Shown here piece by piece: positions 7,428 to 36,819 of a stretch of DNA of 37,111 bases (its first letter is position 1; each line of letters opens with the position of its first letter). A model generated the notes under the pieces. That model had not been told where the DNA came from and ran no database searches. It saw only the letters and a list, made by a program, of their open reading frames with translations. The stretch is taken from sequence record MZ375256.1; one strand, written 5' to 3'. Position numbers and translations under genes: made by a program. Origin of the DNA: Escherichia phage T7.

Positions 7428-8009
7428 TGGGACTGTTAGATGGTGAAGCCTGGGAAAAAGAAAACCCGCCAGTACAAGCAACTGGGTGTATAGCTTGCTT
7501 AGAGAAAGATGACCGTTATCCACACACCTGTAACAAAGGAGCTAACGATATGACCGAACGTGAACAAGAGATGATCATTAAGTTGATAGACAATAATGAA
7601 GGTCGCCCAGATGATTTGAATGGCTGCGGTATTCTCTGCTCCAATGTCCCTTGCCACCTCTGCCCCGCAAATAACGATCAAAAGATAACCTTAGGTGAAA
7701 TCCGAGCGATGGACCCACGTAAACCACATCTGAATAAACCTGAGGTAACTCCTACAGATGACCAGCCTTCCGCTGAGACAATCGAAGGTGTCACTAAGCC
7801 TTCCCACTACATGCTGTTTGACGACATTGAGGCTATCGAAGTGATTGCTCGTTCAATGACCGTTGAGCAGTTCAAGGGATACTGCTTCGGTAACATCTTA
7901 AAGTACAGACTACGTGCTGGTAAGAAGTCAGAGTTAGCGTACTTAGAGAAAGACCTAGCGAAAGCAGACTTCTATAAAGAACTCTTTGAGAAACATAAGG
8001 ATAAATGTT

Positions 8010-9117: not shown

Positions 9118-9537
9118 GTGGAACTGCGGGAGAAAATCCTTGAGCGAATCAAGGTGACTTCCTCTGGGTGTTGGGAGTGGCAGGGCGCTACGAACAATAA
9201 AGGGTACGGGCAGGTGTGGTGCAGCAATACCGGAAAGGTTGTCTACTGTCATCGCGTAATGTCTAATGCTCCGAAAGGTTCTACCGTCCTGCACTCCTGT
9301 GATAATCCATTATGTTGTAACCCTGAACACCGTTCCATAGGAACTCCAAAAGAGAACTCCACTGACATGGTAAATAAGGGTCGCTCACACAAGGGGTATA
9401 AACTTTCAGACGAAGACGTAATGGCAATCATGGAGTCCAGCGAGTCCAATGTATCCTTAGCTCGCACCTATGGTGTCTCCCAACAGACTATTTGTGATAT
9501 ACGCAAAGGGAGGCGACATGGCAGGTTACGGCGCTAA
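9118..9537 (+). CDS. 2.8: HNH endonuclease-family protein
   Basis: 139-aa ORF with GTG start; Cys/His motif CHRVMSN...HSCDNPLCCNPEH; clear paralog of the 17460-17852 ORF. Confidence 0.85.
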   Translation: MELREKILERIKVTSSGCWEWQGATNNKGYGQVWCSNTGKVVYCHRVMSNAPKGSTVLHSCDNPLCCNPEHRSIGTPKENSTDMVNKGRSHKGYKLSDEDVMAIMESSESNVSLARTYGVSQQTICDIRKGRRHGRLRR

Positions 9538-9967: not shown

Positions 9968-10422
9968 TGGCTCGTGTACAGTTTAAACAACGTGAATCTA
10001 CTGACGCAATCTTTGTTCACTGCTCGGCTACCAAGCCAAGTCAGAATGTTGGTGTCCGTGAGATTCGCCAGTGGCACAAAGAGCAGGGTTGGCTCGATGT
10101 GGGATACCACTTTATCATCAAGCGAGACGGTACTGTGGAGGCAGGACGAGATGAGATGGCTGTAGGCTCTCACGCTAAGGGTTACAACCACAACTCTATC
10201 GGCGTCTGCCTTGTTGGTGGTATCGACGATAAAGGTAAGTTCGACGCTAACTTTACGCCAGCCCAAATGCAATCCCTTCGCTCACTGCTTGTCACACTGC
10301 TGGCTAAGTACGAAGGCGCTGTGCTTCGCGCCCATCATGAGGTGGCGCCGAAGGCTTGCCCTTCGTTCGACCTTAAGCGTTGGTGGGAGAAGAACGAACT
10401 GGTCACTTCTGACCGTGGATAA
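9967..10422 (+). CDS. 3.5: Lysozyme (N-acetylmuramoyl-L-alanine amidase) and RNAP inhibitor
   Basis: 151-aa ORF. Confidence 0.95.
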   Translation: MARVQFKQRESTDAIFVHCSATKPSQNVGVREIRQWHKEQGWLDVGYHFIIKRDGTVEAGRDEMAVGSHAKGYNHNSIGVCLVGGIDDKGKFDANFTPAQMQSLRSLLVTLLAKYEGAVLRAHHEVAPKACPSFDLKRWWEKNELVTSDRG

Positions 10423-12234
<1,812 letters not shown>

Positions 12235-12302
12235 CAGGATTCTTGACAGTTGTTTCATATGAAGAGATTGTTAAGTCACGATAATCAATAGGAGAAATCA
12301 AT

Positions 12303-14417
12303 ATGATCGTTTCTGACATCGAAGCTAACGCCCTCTTAGAGAGCGTCACTAAGTTCCACTGCGGGGTTATCTACGACTACTCCACCGCTGAGTACGTAAG
12401 CTACCGTCCGAGTGACTTCGGTGCGTATCTGGATGCGCTGGAAGCCGAGGTTGCACGAGGCGGTCTTATTGTGTTCCACAACGGTCACAAGTATGACGTT
12501 CCTGCATTGACCAAACTGGCAAAGTTGCAATTGAACCGAGAGTTCCACCTTCCTCGTGAGAACTGTATTGACACCCTTGTGTTGTCACGTTTGATTCATT
12601 TCAACCTCAAGGACACCGATATGGGTCTTCTGCGTTCCGGCAAGTTGCCCGGAAAACGCTTTGGGTCTCACGCTTTGGAGGCGTGGGGTTATCGCTTAGG
12701 CGAGATGAAGGGTGAATACAAAGACGACTTTAAGCGTATGCTTGAAGAGCAGGGTGAAGAATACGTTGACGGAATGGAGTGGTGGAACTTCAACGAAGAG
12801 ATGATGGACTATAACGTTCAGGACGTTGTGGTAACTAAAGCTCTCCTTGAGAAGCTACTCTCTGACAAACATTACTTCCCTCCTGAGATTGACTTTACGG
12901 ACGTAGGATACACTACGTTCTGGTCAGAATCCCTTGAGGCCGTTGACATTGAACATCGTGCTGCATGGCTGCTCGCTAAACAAGAGCGCAACGGGTTCCC
13001 GTTTGACACAAAAGCAATCGAAGAGTTGTACGTAGAGTTAGCTGCTCGCCGCTCTGAGTTGCTCCGTAAATTGACCGAAACGTTCGGCTCGTGGTATCAG
13101 CCTAAAGGTGGCACTGAGATGTTCTGCCATCCGCGAACAGGTAAGCCACTACCTAAATACCCTCGCATTAAGACACCTAAAGTTGGTGGTATCTTTAAGA
13201 AGCCTAAGAACAAGGCACAGCGAGAAGGCCGTGAGCCTTGCGAACTTGATACCCGCGAGTACGTTGCTGGTGCTCCTTACACCCCAGTTGAACATGTTGT
13301 GTTTAACCCTTCGTCTCGTGACCACATTCAGAAGAAACTCCAAGAGGCTGGGTGGGTCCCGACCAAGTACACCGATAAGGGTGCTCCTGTGGTGGACGAT
13401 GAGGTACTCGAAGGAGTACGTGTAGATGACCCTGAGAAGCAAGCCGCTATCGACCTCATTAAAGAGTACTTGATGATTCAGAAGCGAATCGGACAGTCTG
13501 CTGAGGGAGACACAGCATGGCTTCGTTATGTTGCTGAGGATGGTAAGATTCATGGTTCTGTTAACCCTAATGGAGCAGTTACGGGTCGTGCGACCCATGC
13601 GTTCCCAAACCTTGCGCAAATTCCGGGTGTACGTTCTCCTTATGGAGAGCAGTGTCGCGCTGCTTTTGGCGCTGAGCACCATTTGGATGGGATAACTGGT
13701 AAGCCTTGGGTTCAGGCTGGCATCGACGCATCCGGTCTTGAGCTACGCTGCTTGGCTCACTTCATGGCTCGCTTTGATAACGGCGAGTACGCTCACGAGA
13801 TTCTTAACGGCGACATCCACACTAAGAACCAGATAGCTGCTGAACTACCTACCCGAGATAACGCTAAGACGTTCATCTATGGGTTCCTCTATGGTGCTGG
13901 TGATGAGAAGATTGGACAGATTGTTGGTGCTGGTAAAGAGCGCGGTAAGGAACTCAAGAAGAAATTCCTTGAGAACACCCCCGCGATTGCAGCACTCCGC
14001 GAGTCTATCCAACAGACACTTGTCGAGTCCTCTCAATGGGTAGCTGGTGAGCAACAAGTCAAGTGGAAACGCCGCTGGATTAAAGGTCTGGATGGTCGTA
14101 AGGTACACGTTCGTAGTCCTCACGCTGCCTTGAATACCCTACTGCAATCTGCTGGTGCTCTCATCTGCAAACTGTGGATTATCAAGACCGAAGAGATGCT
14201 CGTAGAGAAAGGCTTGAAGCATGGCTGGGATGGGGACTTTGCGTACATGGCATGGGTACATGATGAAATCCAAGTAGGCTGCCGTACCGAAGAGATTGCT
14301 CAGGTGGTCATTGAGACCGCACAAGAAGCGATGCGCTGGGTTGGAGACCACTGGAACTTCCGGTGTCTTCTGGATACCGAAGGTAAGATGGGTCCTAATT
14401 GGGCGATTTGCCACTGA
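12303..14417 (+). CDS. 5: DNA polymerase
   Basis: 704-aa ORF, family A polymerase with 3'-5' exonuclease domain. Confidence 0.98.
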
Positions 14418-16475: not shown

Positions 16476-16742
16476 ATGTGTTTCTCACCGAAAATTAAAA
16501 CTCCGAAGATGGATACCAATCAGATTCGAGCCGTTGAGCCAGCGCCTCTGACCCAAGAAGTGTCAAGCGTGGAGTTCGGTGGGTCTTCTGATGAGACGGA
16601 TACCGAGGGCACCGAAGTGTCTGGACGCAAAGGCCTCAAGGTCGAACGTGATGATTCCGTAGCGAAGTCTAAAGCCAGCGGCAATGGCTCCGCTCGTATG
16701 AAATCTTCCATCCGTAAGTCCGCATTTGGAGGTAAGAAGTGA
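16476..16742 (+). CDS. 6.7: Gp6.7 virion protein
   Basis: 88-aa ORF from MCFSPKIKTPK. Confidence 0.85.
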   Translation: MCFSPKIKTPKMDTNQIRAVEPAPLTQEVSSVEFGGSSDETDTEGTEVSGRKGLKVERDDSVAKSKASGNGSARMKSSIRKSAFGGKK

Positions 16743-17143
16743 TGTCTGAGTTCACATGTGTGGAGGCTAAGAGTCGCTTCCGTGCAATCCGGTGGACTGT
16801 GGAACACCTTGGGTTGCCTAAAGGATTCGAAGGACACTTTGTGGGCTACAGCCTCTACGTAGACGAAGTGATGGACATGTCTGGTTGCCGTGAAGAGTAC
16901 ATTCTGGACTCTACCGGAAAACATGTAGCGTACTTCGCGTGGTGCGTAAGCTGTGACATTCACCACAAAGGAGACATTCTGGATGTAACGTCCGTTGTCA
17001 TTAATCCTGAGGCAGACTCTAAGGGCTTACAGCGATTCCTAGCGAAACGCTTTAAGTACCTTGCGGAACTCCACGATTGCGATTGGGTGTCTCGTTGTAA
17101 GCATGAAGGCGAGACAATGCGTGTATACTTTAAGGAGGTATAA
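16742..17143 (+). CDS. 7: Gp7 virion/host-range protein
   Basis: 133-aa ORF. Confidence 0.85.
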   Translation: MSEFTCVEAKSRFRAIRWTVEHLGLPKGFEGHFVGYSLYVDEVMDMSGCREEYILDSTGKHVAYFAWCVSCDIHHKGDILDVTSVVINPEADSKGLQRFLAKRFKYLAELHDCDWVSRCKHEGETMRVYFKEV

Positions 17144-19561: not shown

Positions 19562-20485
19562 ATGGCTGAATCTAATGCAGACGTATATGCATCTTTTGGC
19601 GTGAACTCCGCTGTGATGTCTGGTGGTTCCGTTGAGGAACATGAGCAGAACATGCTGGCTCTTGATGTTGCTGCCCGTGATGGCGATGATGCAATCGAGT
19701 TAGCGTCAGACGAAGTGGAAACAGAACGTGACCTGTATGACAACTCTGACCCGTTCGGTCAAGAGGATGACGAAGGCCGCATTCAGGTTCGTATCGGTGA
19801 TGGCTCTGAGCCGACCGATGTGGACACTGGAGAAGAAGGCGTTGAGGGCACCGAAGGTTCCGAAGAGTTTACCCCACTGGGCGAGACTCCAGAAGAACTG
19901 GTAGCTGCCTCTGAGCAACTTGGTGAGCACGAAGAGGGCTTCCAAGAGATGATTAACATTGCTGCTGAGCGTGGCATGAGTGTCGAGACCATTGAGGCTA
20001 TCCAGCGTGAGTACGAGGAGAACGAAGAGTTGTCCGCCGAGTCCTACGCTAAGCTGGCTGAAATTGGCTACACGAAGGCTTTCATTGACTCGTATATCCG
20101 TGGTCAAGAAGCTCTGGTGGAGCAGTACGTAAACAGTGTCATTGAGTACGCTGGTGGTCGTGAACGTTTTGATGCACTGTATAACCACCTTGAGACGCAC
20201 AACCCTGAGGCTGCACAGTCGCTGGATAATGCGTTGACCAATCGTGACTTAGCGACCGTTAAGGCTATCATCAACTTGGCTGGTGAGTCTCGCGCTAAGG
20301 CGTTCGGTCGTAAGCCAACTCGTAGTGTGACTAATCGTGCTATTCCGGCTAAACCTCAGGCTACCAAGCGTGAAGGCTTTGCGGACCGTAGCGAGATGAT
20401 TAAAGCTATGAGTGACCCTCGGTATCGCACAGATGCCAACTATCGTCGTCAAGTCGAACAGAAAGTAATCGATTCGAACTTCTGA
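19562..20485 (+). CDS. 9: Capsid assembly scaffolding protein
   Basis: 307-aa highly acidic ORF. Confidence 0.95.
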   Translation: MAESNADVYASFGVNSAVMSGGSVEEHEQNMLALDVAARDGDDAIELASDEVETERDLYDNSDPFGQEDDEGRIQVRIGDGSEPTDVDTGEEGVEGTEGSEEFTPLGETPEELVAASEQLGEHEEGFQEMINIAAERGMSVETIEAIQREYEENEELSAESYAKLAEIGYTKAFIDSYIRGQEALVEQYVNSVIEYAGGRERFDALYNHLETHNPEAAQSLDNALTNRDLATVKAIINLAGESRAKAFGRKPTRSVTNRAIPAKPQATKREGFADRSEMIKAMSDPRYRTDANYRRQVEQKVIDSNF

Positions 20486-20498
20486 TAGACTTCGAAAT

Positions 20499-20521
20499 TA
20501 ATACGACTCACTATATGGAGA
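20499..20521 (+). promoter_or_regulatory. T7 promoter phi10 with non-consensus +1 (T instead of G)
   Basis: taatacgactcactataTggaga followed by the gene 10 leader accacaacggtttccctctagaaataattttgtttaactttaagaaggagatatacat. Confidence 0.85.
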
Positions 20522-20578
20522 CCACAACGGTTTCCCTCTAGAAATAATTTTGTTTAACTTTAAGAAGGAGATATACAT

Positions 20579-21616
20579 ATGGCTAGCATGACTGGTGGAC
20601 AGCAAATGGGTACTAACCAAGGTAAAGGTGTAGTTGCTGCTGGAGATAAACTGGCGTTGTTCTTGAAGGTATTTGGCGGTGAAGTCCTGACTGCGTTCGC
20701 TCGTACCTCCGTGACCACTTCTCGCCACATGGTACGTTCCATCTCCAGCGGTAAATCCGCTCAGTTCCCTGTTCTGGGTCGCACTCAGGCAGCGTATCTG
20801 GCTCCGGGCGAGAACCTCGACGATAAACGTAAGGACATCAAACACACCGAGAAGGTAATCACCATTGACGGTCTCCTGACGGCTGACGTTCTGATTTATG
20901 ATATTGAGGACGCGATGAACCACTACGACGTTCGCTCTGAGTATACCTCTCAGTTGGGTGAATCTCTGGCGATGGCTGCGGATGGTGCGGTTCTGGCTGA
21001 GATTGCCGGTCTGTGTAACGTGGAAAGCAAATATAATGAGAACATCGAGGGCTTAGGTACTGCTACCGTAATTGAGACCACTCAGAACAAGGCCGCACTT
21101 ACCGACCAAGTTGCGCTGGGTAAGGAGATTATTGCGGCTCTGACTAAGGCTCGTGCGGCTCTGACCAAGAACTATGTTCCGGCTGCTGACCGTGTGTTCT
21201 ACTGTGACCCAGATAGCTACTCTGCGATTCTGGCAGCACTGATGCCGAACGCAGCAAACTACGCTGCTCTGATTGACCCTGAGAAGGGTTCTATCCGCAA
21301 CGTTATGGGCTTTGAGGTTGTAGAAGTTCCGCACCTCACCGCTGGTGGTGCTGGTACCGCTCGTGAGGGCACTACTGGTCAGAAGCACGTCTTCCCTGCC
21401 AATAAAGGTGAGGGTAATGTCAAGGTTGCTAAGGACAACGTTATCGGCCTGTTCATGCACCGCTCTGCGGTAGGTACTGTTAAGCTGCGTGACTTGGCTC
21501 TGGAGCGCGCTCGCCGTGCTAACTTCCAAGCGGACCAGATTATCGCTAAGTACGCAATGGGCCACGGTGGTCTTCGCCCAGAAGCTGCTGGTGCAGTGGT
21601 TTTCAAAGTGGAGTAA
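20579..21616 (+). CDS. 10A: Major capsid protein 10A
   Basis: 345-aa ORF starting MASMTGGQQMG. Confidence 0.98.
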   Translation: MASMTGGQQMGTNQGKGVVAAGDKLALFLKVFGGEVLTAFARTSVTTSRHMVRSISSGKSAQFPVLGRTQAAYLAPGENLDDKRKDIKHTEKVITIDGLLTADVLIYDIEDAMNHYDVRSEYTSQLGESLAMAADGAVLAEIAGLCNVESKYNENIEGLGTATVIETTQNKAALTDQVALGKEIIAALTKARAALTKNYVPAADRVFYCDPDSYSAILAALMPNAANYAALIDPEKGSIRNVMGFEVVEVPHLTAGGAGTAREGTTGQKHVFPANKGEGNVKVAKDNVIGLFMHRSAVGTVKLRDLALERARRANFQADQIIAKYAMGHGGLRPEAAGAVVFKVE

Positions 21617-21774
21617 TGCTGGGGGTGGCCTCAACGGTCGCTGCTAGTCCCGAAGAGGCGAGTGTTACTTCAACAGAAGAAACCTTAACGCCAGCACAGG
21701 AGGCCGCACGCACCCGCGCTGCTAACAAAGCCCGAAAGGAAGCTGAGTTGGCTGCTGCCACCGCTGAGCAATAA
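20579..21774 (+). CDS. 10B: Minor capsid protein 10B, made by -1 ribosomal frameshift near 21599-21604
   Basis: Slippery ggttttc at the 10A end; the -1 frame stays open to caa taa at 21772-21774. Confidence 0.8.
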
Positions 21775-21822
21775 CTAGCATAACCCCTTGGGGCCTCTAA
21801 ACGGGTCTTGAGGGGTTTTTTG
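21775..21822 (+). terminator. Tphi terminator for T7 RNA polymerase
   Basis: ctagcataaccccttggggcctctaaacgggtcttgaggggttttttg: hairpin plus U-tract. Confidence 0.95.
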
Positions 21823-21839
21823 CTGAAAGGAGGAACTAT

Positions 21840-22430
21840 ATGCGCTCATACGATATGAACGTTGAGACTGCCGCTGAGTTATCAGCTGTGAACGACATTC
21901 TGGCGTCTATCGGTGAACCTCCGGTATCAACGCTGGAAGGTGACGCTAACGCAGATGCAGCGAACGCTCGGCGTATTCTCAACAAGATTAACCGACAGAT
22001 TCAATCTCGTGGATGGACGTTCAACATTGAGGAAGGCATAACGCTACTACCTGATGTTTACTCCAACCTGATTGTATACAGTGACGACTATTTATCCCTA
22101 ATGTCTACTTCCGGTCAATCCATCTACGTTAACCGAGGTGGCTATGTGTATGACCGAACGAGTCAATCAGACCGCTTTGACTCTGGTATTACTGTGAACA
22201 TTATTCGTCTCCGCGACTACGATGAGATGCCTGAGTGCTTCCGTTACTGGATTGTCACCAAGGCTTCCCGTCAGTTCAACAACCGATTCTTTGGGGAACC
22301 GGAAGTAGAGGGTGTACTCCAAGAAGAGGAAGATGAGGCTAGACGTCTCTGCATGGAGTATGAGATGGACTACGGTGGGTACAATATGCTGGATGGAGAT
22401 GCGTTCACTTCTGGTCTACTGACTCGCTAA
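21840..22430 (+). CDS. 11: Tail tubular protein A
   Basis: 196-aa ORF. Confidence 0.95.
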
Positions 22431-22453: not shown

Positions 22454-24838
22454 ATGGCACTCATTAGCCAATCAATCAAGAACTTGAAGGGTGGTATCAG
22501 CCAACAGCCTGACATCCTTCGTTATCCAGACCAAGGGTCACGCCAAGTTAACGGTTGGTCTTCGGAGACCGAGGGCCTCCAAAAGCGTCCACCTCTTGTT
22601 TTCTTAAATACACTTGGAGACAACGGTGCGTTAGGTCAAGCTCCGTACATCCACCTGATTAACCGAGATGAGCACGAACAGTATTACGCTGTGTTCACTG
22701 GTAGCGGAATCCGAGTGTTCGACCTTTCTGGTAACGAGAAGCAAGTTAGGTATCCTAACGGTTCCAACTACATCAAGACCGCTAATCCACGTAACGACCT
22801 GCGAATGGTTACTGTAGCAGACTATACGTTCATCGTTAACCGTAACGTTGTTGCACAGAAGAACACAAAGTCTGTCAACTTACCGAATTACAACCCTAAT
22901 CAAGACGGATTGATTAACGTTCGTGGTGGTCAGTATGGTAGGGAACTAATTGTACACATTAACGGTAAAGACGTTGCGAAGTATAAGATACCAGATGGTA
23001 GTCAACCTGAACACGTAAACAATACGGATGCCCAATGGTTAGCTGAAGAGTTAGCCAAGCAGATGCGCACTAACTTGTCTGATTGGACTGTAAATGTAGG
23101 GCAAGGGTTCATCCATGTGACCGCACCTAGTGGTCAACAGATTGACTCCTTCACGACTAAAGATGGCTACGCAGACCAGTTGATTAACCCTGTGACCCAC
23201 TACGCTCAGTCGTTCTCTAAGCTGCCACCTAATGCTCCTAACGGCTACATGGTGAAAATCGTAGGGGACGCCTCTAAGTCTGCCGACCAGTATTACGTTC
23301 GGTATGACGCTGAGCGGAAAGTTTGGACTGAGACTTTAGGTTGGAACACTGAGGACCAAGTTCTATGGGAAACCATGCCACACGCTCTTGTGCGAGCCGC
23401 TGACGGTAATTTCGACTTCAAGTGGCTTGAGTGGTCTCCTAAGTCTTGTGGTGACGTTGACACCAACCCTTGGCCTTCTTTTGTTGGTTCAAGTATTAAC
23501 GATGTGTTCTTCTTCCGTAACCGCTTAGGATTCCTTAGTGGGGAGAACATCATATTGAGTCGTACAGCCAAATACTTCAACTTCTACCCTGCGTCCATTG
23601 CGAACCTTAGTGATGACGACCCTATAGACGTAGCTGTGAGTACCAACCGAATAGCAATCCTTAAGTACGCCGTTCCGTTCTCAGAAGAGTTACTCATCTG
23701 GTCCGATGAAGCACAATTCGTCCTGACTGCCTCGGGTACTCTCACATCTAAGTCGGTTGAGTTGAACCTAACGACCCAGTTTGACGTACAGGACCGAGCG
23801 AGACCTTTTGGGATTGGGCGTAATGTCTACTTTGCTAGTCCGAGGTCCAGCTTCGCGTCCATCCACAGGTACTACGCTGTGCAGGATGTCAGTTCCGTTA
23901 AGAATGCTGAGGACATTACATCACACGTTCCTAACTACATCCCTAATGGTGTGTTCAGTATTTGCGGAAGTGGTACGGAAAACTTCTGTTCGGTACTATC
24001 TCACGGGGACCCTAGTAAAATCTTCATGTACAAATTCCTGTACCTGAACGAAGAGTTAAGGCAACAGTCGTGGTCTCATTGGGACTTTGGGGAAAACGTA
24101 CAGGTTCTAGCTTGTCAGAGTATCAGCTCAGATATGTATGTGATTCTTCGCAATGAGTTCAATACGTTCCTAGCTAGAATCTCTTTCACTAAGAACGCCA
24201 TTGACTTACAGGGAGAACCCTATCGTGCCTTTATGGACATGAAGATTCGATACACGATTCCTAGTGGAACATACAACGATGACACATTCACTACCTCTAT
24301 TCATATTCCAACAATTTATGGTGCAAACTTCGGGAGGGGCAAAATCACTGTATTGGAGCCTGATGGTAAGATAACCGTGTTTGAGCAACCTACGGCTGGG
24401 TGGAATAGCGACCCTTGGCTGAGACTCAGCGGTAACTTGGAGGGACGCATGGTGTACATTGGGTTCAACATTAACTTCGTATATGAGTTCTCTAAGTTCC
24501 TCATCAAGCAGACTGCCGACGACGGGTCTACCTCCACGGAAGACATTGGGCGCTTACAGTTACGCCGAGCGTGGGTTAACTACGAGAACTCTGGTACGTT
24601 TGACATTTATGTTGAGAACCAATCGTCTAACTGGAAGTACACAATGGCTGGTGCCCGATTAGGCTCTAACACTCTGAGGGCTGGGAGACTGAACTTAGGG
24701 ACCGGACAATATCGATTCCCTGTGGTTGGTAACGCCAAGTTCAACACTGTATACATCTTGTCAGATGAGACTACCCCTCTGAACATCATTGGGTGTGGCT
24801 GGGAAGGTAACTACTTACGGAGAAGTTCCGGTATTTAA
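22454..24838 (+). CDS. 12: Tail tubular protein B
   Basis: 794-aa ORF. Confidence 0.95.
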   Translation: MALISQSIKNLKGGISQQPDILRYPDQGSRQVNGWSSETEGLQKRPPLVFLNTLGDNGALGQAPYIHLINRDEHEQYYAVFTGSGIRVFDLSGNEKQVRYPNGSNYIKTANPRNDLRMVTVADYTFIVNRNVVAQKNTKSVNLPNYNPNQDGLINVRGGQYGRELIVHINGKDVAKYKIPDGSQPEHVNNTDAQWLAEELAKQMRTNLSDWTVNVGQGFIHVTAPSGQQIDSFTTKDGYADQLINPVTHYAQSFSKLPPNAPNGYMVKIVGDASKSADQYYVRYDAERKVWTETLGWNTEDQVLWETMPHALVRAADGNFDFKWLEWSPKSCGDVDTNPWPSFVGSSINDVFFFRNRLGFLSGENIILSRTAKYFNFYPASIANLSDDDPIDVAVSTNRIAILKYAVPFSEELLIWSDEAQFVLTASGTLTSKSVELNLTTQFDVQDRARPFGIGRNVYFASPRSSFASIHRYYAVQDVSSVKNAEDITSHVPNYIPNGVFSICGSGTENFCSVLSHGDPSKIFMYKFLYLNEELRQQSWSHWDFGENVQVLACQSISSDMYVILRNEFNTFLARISFTKNAIDLQGEPYRAFMDMKIRYTIPSGTYNDDTFTTSIHIPTIYGANFGRGKITVLEPDGKITVFEQPTAGWNSDPWLRLSGNLEGRMVYIGFNINFVYEFSKFLIKQTADDGSTSTEDIGRLQLRRAWVNYENSGTFDIYVENQSSNWKYTMAGARLGSNTLRAGRLNLGTGQYRFPVVGNAKFNTVYILSDETTPLNIIGCGWEGNYLRRSSGI

Positions 24839-36771: not shown

Positions 36772-36819
36772 ATGTTCCGCTTATTGTTGAACCTACTGCG
36801 GCATAGAGTCAAGTCCTAA
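36772..36819 (+). pseudogene. 19.5: Gene 19.5 truncated to 15 codons
   Basis: RBS gggaggag then ATG; reads MFRLLLNLLRHRVKS* whereas the canonical gene is about 49 codons; size accounting implies about 189 bp missing here. Confidence 0.5.

What the first reader, a model, noticed from the sequence alone, without database searches (positions are those of the whole stretch)
21596..21607. Programmed -1 frameshift site at the end of gene 10A is intact
The slippery run g-gtt-ttc-aaa lies 3 codons before the 10A stop, and the -1 frame stays open for 56 more codons to taa at 21772-21774, immediately before the Tphi hairpin. This is the textbook arrangement giving the minor capsid protein 10B; it is noted here because the phi10 promoter upstream is variant while this element is untouched.
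Basis: partly seen in the sequence, partly recalled or inferred. Interest (0 to 1): 0.2.

Follow-up and report, generated by a model that had tools for sequence, protein, structure and literature searches.

The report
Intact T7 capsid gene frameshift site
This is the well-known ribosomal frameshift signal at the end of phage T7's major capsid gene, base-for-base identical to reference T7 in a laboratory genome-reduced T7 strain, so it is real but ordinary.

Summary
The window is a genome-reduced laboratory mutant of phage T7 from the MZ3752xx series.

- **Gene 10A** is 20579-21616 (345 aa).
- **Shift site:** the in-frame heptamer G_GTT_TTC lies at 21598-21604, three codons before the TAA stop (21614-21616).
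- **-1 frame:** it stays open for 56 further codons to TAA at 21772-21774. That is 7 nt before the T-phi terminator hairpin (21782-21817), and the predicted 10B is 398 aa.
- **Identity to reference T7:** in the aligned stretch 20400-21900 the only difference from V01146 is G->T at phi10 +1 (20516). A whole-window comparison shows the next difference at 22297. The shift site, the 10B extension and T-phi, including its CCCC, are therefore all wild type.

The heptamer alone occurs at chance frequency, so context is what makes this significant:
- Only 1.2% of in-frame positions have a -1 frame open for 56 or more codons.
- GTT_TTC and an open -1 frame are conserved in nine phages of at least four genera.
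- Substitutions in the extension concentrate at -1-frame third positions (16 of 20, against 5 and 4).

No canonical nearby stimulatory structure was found, and the published dependence on T-phi remains unexplained.

The parts
20499..20521 (+). T7 class III promoter phi10, variant: +1 G->T at 20516 (TAATACGACTCACTATA-T-GGAGA)
   Evidence: It is the only difference from V01146 in window 20400-21900. V01146 annotates the phi10 start at 22904, which corresponds to window 20516.
20579..21616 (+). Gene 10A, major capsid protein, 345 aa, stop TAA 21614-21616
   Evidence: ORF list. Identical to V01146 10A. Pfam Gp10A-like PF21703, E=1e-114, covers residues 62-341. Matches PDB 2xvr/3j7v 'major capsid protein 10A'.
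21598..21604 (+). Slippery heptamer G_GTT_TTC: Val341-Phe342 in the 0 frame, GGT-TTT in the -1 frame
   Evidence: Named as the T7 gene 10 shift site in the Atkins et al. 2016 review and in Slootweg 2006. GTT_TTC is invariant in 9 phages of at least four genera.
21604..21774 (+). -1-frame extension of 10B: 56 codons (QSGVMLGV...KEAELAAATAEQ) plus TAA at 21772-21774. 10B = join(20579..21604, 21604..21774), 398 aa
   Evidence: There are no stops in the -1 frame in all 9 relatives, whereas the +1 frame always has stops and the 0 frame has them in 8 of 9. Third-position bias of substitutions is 5/4/16.
21782..21821 (+). T7 RNA polymerase terminator T-phi: 15-bp hairpin 21782-21817 plus T-run 21816-21821. 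It contains the CCCC (21784-21787) reported to influence frameshifting
   Evidence: V01146 annotates T-phi here. The review states that a CCCC in the terminator is involved. Identical to reference T7.
21840..22430 (+). Gene 11 (tail tubular protein A). It marks the end of the 10A-11 interval that the 10B extension and T-phi fill

Best explanation
This is the programmed -1 ribosomal frameshift cassette of phage T7 gene 10, unaltered.

Mechanism, taken from established knowledge and inferred here by sequence identity:
- Most ribosomes translating gene 10 mRNA decode ...GTG GTT TTC AAA GTG GAG TAA and release the 345-aa major capsid protein 10A.
- A minority (about 10% in wild-type T7) slip one base backwards on G_GUU_UUC. 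The A-site tRNA-Phe re-pairs from UUC to UUU. The P-site tRNA-Val re-pairs imperfectly from GUU to GGU.
- Those ribosomes then read CAA AGT GGA... for 56 codons to TAA 21772-21774. The product is the 398-aa minor capsid protein 10B, which co-assembles into the head.
- Efficient shifting in T7 also needs 3' sequence extending to the T-phi terminator. The mechanism of that requirement is unexplained in the literature.

All of this sequence is wild type in the window. The cassette should therefore work as in T7, giving a fixed 10A:10B ratio regardless of the phi10 +1 G->T change, which can only affect transcript amount or the 5' end.
For: Shown here:
- The sequence and both reading frames are as described.
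- Aligned window 20400-21900 differs from V01146 at a single base, 20516. A whole-window comparison shows no further difference until 22297.
- V01146 annotates the 10B joined CDS and T-phi at the corresponding positions.
- A long open -1 frame is rare: 1.2% of in-frame positions.
- GTT_TTC lies 9-12 nt before the 10A stop and the -1 frame is stop-free for 45-56 codons in nine phages of Teseptimavirus, Berlinvirus, Helsettvirus and Kayfunavirus. The +1 frame carries stops in all nine and the 0 frame in eight.
- The extension motif LTPxQKAARTRAANKARKEAEL is conserved, with variable columns at -1-frame codon positions 1/2/3 of 5/4/16. T7 versus fPS-53 shows 15 nt differences but 1 aa difference.
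- The capsid-fold Pfam domain ends at residue 341, exactly at the shift site.

From the literature:
- G_GU... in T7 gene 10 is an X_XXY_YYZ-type site, and a CCCC in the terminator is involved (PMC5009743).
- 10B arises from about 10% of translations, and GGTTTTC without its native 3' context gives <1% (PMC1635266).
- The 10A:10B ratio is about 10:1, with lengths 345 and 398 aa (PMC8067280).
Against: - No expression data exist for this particular mutant strain.
- The heptamer alone is at chance frequency.
- No canonical stimulator 5-9 nt downstream was found. A small hairpin (21624-21642) has a few compensatory changes, but its spacing from the heptamer differs between genera, 19 versus 28 nt.
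- No significant pairing between the shift-site region and T-phi was found.
- The primary 1991 papers could not be read, so mechanistic detail rests on secondary citations and on my own knowledge.
Confidence: 0.95

Rival explanations
1. The -1-frame ORF is a separate small gene. Ribosomes terminating at the 10A TAA re-initiate at the overlapping ATG (TAATG, 21614-21618) and make a free 52-aa peptide rather than a 10A fusion.
For: The ORF list shows ATG 21616..21774, 52 aa. Several relatives' records annotate exactly such a small ORF: Ebrios 'capsid and scaffold protein', Bas104 'head protein', C5 'minor capsid protein', fPS-53 g033. A GGAG lies 2 nt upstream of the ATG.
Against: The ATG is absent in Berlinvirus-type phages (TTAACTT) and in K1F, yet their -1 frame is still open and conserved all the way from the heptamer. 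Conservation begins at GTT_TTC, not at the ATG. The GGAG-ATG spacing of 2 nt is poor for initiation. The literature describes 10B as a 398-aa capsid protein sharing the 10A N-terminus. The small-ORF annotations are most simply gene-caller artefacts.
Confidence: 0.03
2. 10B arises from transcriptional slippage: RNA polymerase inserts or deletes a base in the T-run, rather than ribosomes slipping.
For: The site contains a homopolymeric T4 run, and a one-base deletion in the mRNA would give the same protein (inference).
Against: Four T residues are far shorter than the runs known to support polymerase slippage (own knowledge). The review files T7 gene 10 under ribosomal X_XXY_YYZ sites. The T3-type relative shifts at C_CCA_AAG, a classical ribosomal A_AAG site with no homopolymer run.
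Confidence: 0.01
3. The cassette is intact in sequence, but 10B output in this strain differs from wild type. Possible reasons are the phi10 +1 G->T change, which alters which transcripts carry gene 10 (more read-through from phi9 and phi6.5), or the seven deletions, which may alter infection physiology.
For: phi10 is the only one of the six consensus class III promoters in the window with a change. The genome carries seven deletions and about 30 point changes. Frameshift efficiency in T7 depends on poorly understood long-range context.
Against: All reported cis determinants lie 3' of the site and are unchanged. Upstream-promoter transcripts still end at the same T-phi. A promoter change alters mRNA amount, not the per-ribosome slip probability (inference).
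Confidence: 0.1
4. It is a chance coincidence of a slippery-looking heptamer with a fortuitously open frame, with no function.
For: GGTTTTC occurs at the random expectation, 5 against 4.9.
Against: Searches show rarity of the open frame, conservation across at least four genera, and codon-position bias. The site is experimentally established in T7.
Confidence: 0.01

Closest known systems
Phage T7 gene 10A/10B programmed -1 ribosomal frameshift (reference genome V01146; Condron, Atkins & Gesteland 1991, cited)
   Same: Everything in the cassette is identical base for base: the heptamer G_GUU_UUC, its distance of 9 nt to the 10A stop, the 56-codon extension, the 10B stop, and the T-phi hairpin with CCCC.
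   Different: Only the genetic background differs. This is a genome-reduced T7 (37,111 bp against 39,937 bp, seven deletions) with phi10 +1 G->T, 63 nt upstream of the 10A ATG.
T3-type (Teetrevirus) gene 10 -1 frameshift, e.g. Enterobacteria phage 3/7 gp10B
   Same: [quoted passage not shown] The record annotates it 'produced by a -1 frameshift'.
   Different: The heptamer is C_CCA_AAG instead of G_GTT_TTC. The extension is 89 codons and is a Big_2 Ig-like domain (Pfam E=2.7e-10), unrelated to the T7-type helical or charged tail.
E. coli dnaX -1 frameshift (A_AAA_AAG with upstream Shine-Dalgarno and downstream hairpin)
   Same: A bacterial-ribosome tandem -1 slippage that gives two products in a fixed ratio.
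   Different: dnaX has well-defined flanking stimulators and about 50% efficiency. In T7 gene 10 no upstream SD-like element was evident by eye at dnaX-like spacing and no properly spaced hairpin was found. Efficiency is about 10%, and there is an unexplained dependence on the distant terminator.
Phage lambda G/GT tail-assembly-chaperone frameshift
   Same: A phage structural-gene -1 frameshift near the end of the upstream ORF that sets a fixed stoichiometry of short and extended products (own knowledge; cited as ref. 21).
   Different: The proteins are unrelated and the role differs (chaperone, not a virion shell component). The slippery sequence is also different.

Membership tests
T7-type gene 10 programmed -1 ribosomal frameshift | In-frame slippery heptamer of X_XXY_YYZ type (G_GUU_UUC) near the end of the major capsid ORF | tested here: met
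   21598-21604, in the 0 frame as G|GTT|TTC, 9 nt before TAA.
T7-type gene 10 programmed -1 ribosomal frameshift | -1 frame open from the site, giving a C-terminally extended product (398 aa in T7) | tested here: met
   56 codons to TAA 21772-21774. 342 + 56 = 398 aa. Matches the V01146 10B joined CDS.
T7-type gene 10 programmed -1 ribosomal frameshift | Native 3' context through the T-phi terminator, including its CCCC, which is reported to be required for full efficiency | tested here: met
   100% identity to V01146 from the shift site through T-phi. Hairpin at 21782-21817 and CCCC at 21784-21787. The requirement itself is taken from the review.
T7-type gene 10 programmed -1 ribosomal frameshift | Evolutionary conservation of the site and purifying selection on the -1-frame extension | tested here: met
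   Nine phages of at least four genera. Variable columns at codon positions 1/2/3 are 5/4/16.
T7-type gene 10 programmed -1 ribosomal frameshift | Defined RNA stimulator (hairpin or pseudoknot 5-9 nt 3' of the site, or long-range pairing) | tested here: inconclusive
   The minimum-free-energy fold has a stem starting 4-5 nt after the site. The only element with covariation (21624-21642) has spacing that is inconsistent between genera. Pairing with T-phi is no better than shuffles.
T7-type gene 10 programmed -1 ribosomal frameshift | Actual synthesis of 10B at about 10% of 10A and its incorporation into capsids in this strain | not testable with these tools
   Requires SDS-PAGE, western blot or mass spectrometry of virions.
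Gp10A-like HK97-fold major capsid protein (Pfam PF21703) | Significant match to the family profile and to solved T7 capsid chains | tested here: met
   PF21703 E=1.2e-114, residues 62-341. PDB 2xvr/3izg/3j7v E=8e-222 over residues 1-343.

The most novel reading that the evidence does not exclude
The small hairpin 19 nt 3' of the heptamer (T7 21624-21642, GGUGGCC-UCAAC-GGUCGCU) keeps its pairing through compensatory changes in Berlinvirus, Helsettvirus and Kayfunavirus relatives. It could be a previously undescribed local component of the poorly understood 3' stimulator of gene 10 frameshifting. That would help explain why the bare heptamer gives <1% shifting but the native context gives about 10%.
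Probability: 0.07. Interest if true: 0.3.

Novelty: already known. Interest (0 to 1): 0.05.

Why it matters
It matters little beyond correct annotation. The 10B product should be annotated as join(20579..21604, 21604..21774) in this and sibling mutant genomes. At least one of them, MZ375283, lacks a 10B annotation in this region.

It also confirms that extensive CRISPR-driven genome reduction left the frameshift cassette and T-phi untouched, while changing the adjacent phi10 start site.

The comparative by-products are small but useful:
- The shift position is conserved across Studiervirinae, with two different heptamers and two unrelated extensions.
- Small 'head protein' ORFs are frequently mis-annotated in relatives.

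These are reminders for annotators, not discoveries.

Tried and rejected
1. **Primary papers.** I tried to read the 1991 papers (PMC209055, PMC328964, PMC5952207). They are not held, so I used the 2016 review and later papers instead.
2. **Accession search.** Searching the literature for the accession MZ375233 returned nothing. The supplement of the CiPGr paper is not held. The link between the window and that study therefore rests on clone naming (T7_260L against T7_300L, where 'L' means large plaque) and on the accession series.
3. **Motif enrichment.** I tested whether the heptamer is enriched. It is not: 5 against 4.9 expected.
4. **Conserved 3' stimulator.** RNAalifold on 9 sequences gave only a weak candidate whose spacing is inconsistent between genera.
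5. **Long-range pairing.** I tested pairing between the 50 nt after the heptamer and T-phi to explain the published CCCC effect. In T7 the result was no better than 30% of shuffles, and it was not consistent across relatives. Rejected.
6. **Independent small ORF at TAATG.** Rejected, because the ATG is not conserved while the frame is.
7. **Transcriptional slippage.** Rejected, because the T-run is only 4 nt.
8. **Exact source record.** I looked for a 37,111-bp record. The closest are MZ3752xx siblings, but no listed record has that exact length.

Full report
**What is there**

Reading window 20300-22000 and listing ORFs shows a 345-aa ORF at 20579-21616. It is preceded by a T7 promoter and the familiar gene 10 leader, and its product begins MASMTGGQQMG.

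The last 0-frame codons are GTG(21596) GTT TTC AAA GTG GAG TAA(21614-21616). The heptamer G_GTT_TTC therefore occupies 21598-21604, three sense codons before the stop.

Translating from 21598 in the -1 frame gives GF followed by 56 codons (QSGVMLGVASTVAASPEEASVTSTEETLTPAQEAARTRAANKARKEAELAAATAEQ) and TAA at 21772-21774. The frameshift product would be 342 + 56 = 398 aa.

A 15-bp G+C-rich hairpin followed by a T-run lies at 21782-21821, 7 nt after that stop. Gene 11 begins at 21840. The only refinement is that the quoted span 21596-21607 is four codons that contain the heptamer.

**Identity of the window**

Megablast of 20400-21900 against the phage collection finds 104 records at 99% identity or more, all T7. 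Ten mutant T7 records (MZ3752xx, e.g. 'Mutant Escherichia phage T7 clone T7_260L') are 100% identical. Reference T7 (V01146) is 99.9% identical.

V01146 annotates this region as follows:
- gene 10A: 22967-24004
- gene 10B: a two-piece joined CDS, 22967-24162
- the phi10 start: 22904
- T-phi: 24210

A base-by-base alignment shows one difference in 1,501 columns, G->T at window 20516. This is position +1 of phi10, giving TAATACGACTCACTATA-T-GGAGA.

A whole-window comparison shows a near-complete T7 genome of 37,111 bp. It has seven internal deletions, which remove genes 0.4(end)-0.6, 1.4, 3.8, 4.2(end)-4.7, 5.3, part of 18.5/18.7, and 19.5. It also has about 30 point changes. None falls between 20517 and 22296. 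The shift site, the entire 10B extension, T-phi and the start of gene 11 are thus wild type.

The deletion pattern and clone names fit the CRISPR/Cas9 iterative genome-reduction study of T7 (PMC9825161). I could not confirm the accession list, because the supplement is not held.

**Is it more than chance?**

The heptamer alone is not: GGTTTTC occurs 5 times on both strands against 4.9 expected. The context is significant.
- Among 9,983 in-frame codon positions of the 24 long plus-strand ORFs, the median open length of the -1 frame is 5 codons. Only 1.2% reach 56 codons.
- Where other genes have a long -1 frame at their end, that frame is simply the next gene. Here it fills the otherwise non-coding interval between 10A and T-phi.

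**Comparative evidence**

I fetched the gene 10 3' region from these relatives:
- Ebrios, Bas104 and C5, which are T7-like; Ebrios and C5 are classified as Teseptimavirus, while the Bas104 record gives no genus
- ErnstBeyeler and CarlSpitteler (Berlinvirus)
- a Berlinvirus-like Yersinia phage
- fPS-53 (Helsettvirus)
- K1F (Kayfunavirus)
- the T3-like phage 3/7 (Teetrevirus)

In all nine non-T3-type genomes, counting the window, three things hold:
- GTT_TTC is invariant and lies 9-12 nt before the 10A stop. It is preceded by G in eight genomes and by C in Ebrios.
- The -1 frame has no stop for 45-56 codons. The +1 frame has 4-5 stops in every genome, and the 0 frame has 1-3 stops in eight of nine (none in fPS-53).
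- The extension ends just before a T-phi-like hairpin in eight of nine.

The extension carries a conserved motif, LTPxQKAARTRAANKARKEAEL. Within a 20-codon block of it, variable alignment columns fall 5, 4 and 16 at -1-frame codon positions 1, 2 and 3. T7 and fPS-53 differ at 15 nucleotides there but at only 1 amino acid. This is the signature of a translated frame under purifying selection.

The -1-frame ATG that overlaps the 10A stop in T7 (TAATG) is missing in the Berlinvirus-type phages and in K1F. The extension therefore cannot depend on independent initiation.

The T3-like phage shifts at the same position, with its heptamer ending 9 nt before the stop. It uses C_CCA_AAG, and its 89-codon extension is a Big_2 Ig-like domain.

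**Protein context**

The assembled 10B sequence matches solved T7 capsid chains named 'major capsid protein 10A' over residues 1-343 only. The Pfam Gp10A-like domain spans residues 62-341. The capsid fold therefore ends at the shift site, and the extension is an appended tail with no Pfam family.

**Mechanism**

- The 2016 recoding review lists T7 gene 10 as an X_XXY_YYZ-type site in which X_XX is G_GU. It notes that a CCCC in the transcription terminator, more than 200 nt 3' of the site, is involved, and calls this an unexplained long-range effect.
- Slootweg et al. state that the frameshift yields 10B in about 10% of translations. They found that GGTTTTC transplanted without its native 3' context gave <1%.
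- Another paper gives the capsid ratio as about 10:1 and the lengths as 345 and 398 aa.

The slip itself is inference from established knowledge of tandem slippage. The A-site tRNA-Phe moves from UUC to UUU, and the P-site tRNA-Val moves from GUU to GGU.

I looked for stimulators.
- The minimum-free-energy fold of 21598-21825 is more stable than shuffles (z = -2.7). It has a composite stem starting 4-5 nt after the heptamer and a local T-phi hairpin, and it shows no pairing between the region just 3' of the shift site and T-phi.
- A consensus fold of nine relatives supports only a 7-bp hairpin (T7 21624-21642) with some compensatory changes. Its distance from the heptamer differs between genera, 19 versus 28 nt.
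- Duplex prediction between the 50 nt after the heptamer and T-phi is no better than shuffled controls in T7, and it is inconsistent across relatives.

The 3' requirement therefore stays unexplained. In the window, however, all of that sequence is wild type.

**Rivals**
- *Independent translation of a 52-aa ORF from the TAATG.* This is contradicted by the non-conservation of the ATG and by the literature on 10B.
- *Transcriptional slippage.* This is implausible on a 4-nt run.
- *Chance.* This is excluded by the conservation data.
- *Altered 10B output in this strain.* A quantitative change because of the phi10 +1 mutation or the reduced background cannot be excluded without experiments. The known cis determinants are nevertheless unchanged.

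**Verdict**

This is the textbook T7 10A/10B frameshift, already known and already annotated in the reference genome. Interest is low. The only mildly noteworthy items are side observations, listed separately.

Noticed in passing
window 20516 (phi10 promoter 20499-20521): The phi10 transcription start base is G->T (+1). This is the only one of the six consensus class III T7 promoters in the window with any change; phi6.5, phi9, phi13, phi17 and phiOR are perfect. At least ten sibling mutant records (MZ3752xx) share the identical sequence. It is likely to lower initiation or shift the start to +2 G (own knowledge). Whether it is adaptive or a CRISPR-escape change is unknown.
   Followed up: partly
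window 385 (phiOL promoter 368-390): phiOL +1 is G here against A in V01146 (T7 405). This makes the phiOL start region match the consensus TATAGGGAGA, which is the opposite direction to the phi10 change.
   Followed up: partly
window junctions ~1321-1332, 7024/7025, ~10512, ~12221-12246, 14432/14433, ~34663, ~36803-36811: There are seven internal deletions relative to T7: T7 coordinates 1353-1903, 7608-7763, 11254-11542, 13278-14272, 16483-16820, 37055-37280 and 39429-39608. They remove genes 0.4(end)-0.6, 1.4, 3.8, 4.2(end)-4.7, 5.3, part of 18.5/18.7, and 19.5. This is consistent with the CiPGr genome-reduction mutants (PMC9825161). The possible 0.6A/0.6B frameshift region of T7 is lost with the first deletion.
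   Followed up: partly
window ~97 and ~37070 (both terminal repeats): An 18-bp deletion (T7 99-116, GGGTTGGGGATGACCCTT) and two single-base deletions are present in both the left and the right terminal repeat copies relative to V01146.
   Followed up: no
L004 617-775, L009 614-772, L010 614-772, L006 596-751; L002 (MZ375283): In several relatives the 10B extension is annotated as a free-standing small ORF ('capsid and scaffold protein', 'head protein', 'minor capsid protein') rather than as a frameshift fusion. In MZ375283 no 10B is annotated in this region. These are probably annotation artefacts.
   Followed up: partly
L005 614-620, L006 614-620, L012 (Berlinvirus/Helsettvirus relatives): These phages carry a second slippery motif, C_AAA_AAG, immediately after and overlapping G_GTT_TTC (GGTTTTCAAAAAG). 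This gives two adjacent potential -1 shift sites that feed the same extension frame.
   Followed up: no
L007 701-976 (Enterobacteria phage 3/7, T3-like): The T3-type 10B uses C_CCA_AAG at the same distance from the 10A stop. It appends an 89-codon Big_2 Ig-like domain (Pfam E=2.7e-10), unrelated to the T7-type tail. The recoding position is the same but the module is different.
   Followed up: partly
window 21624-21642: A 7-bp hairpin (GGUGGCC-UCAAC-GGUCGCU) inside the 10B extension keeps its pairing through some compensatory changes in other genera. Its stem-loop sequence also resembles the upper part of T-phi (GGGGCC-UCUAAAC-GGGUCU). Its significance is unknown and the statistical support is weak.
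   Followed up: partly
window 9332-9333 (T7 10071-10072, gene 2.8): There is an adjacent double substitution TA->GT relative to V01146. Together with the other scattered point changes (genes 1, 5, 7.3, 11, 12, 16, 17, 19), it was not analysed further.
   Followed up: no
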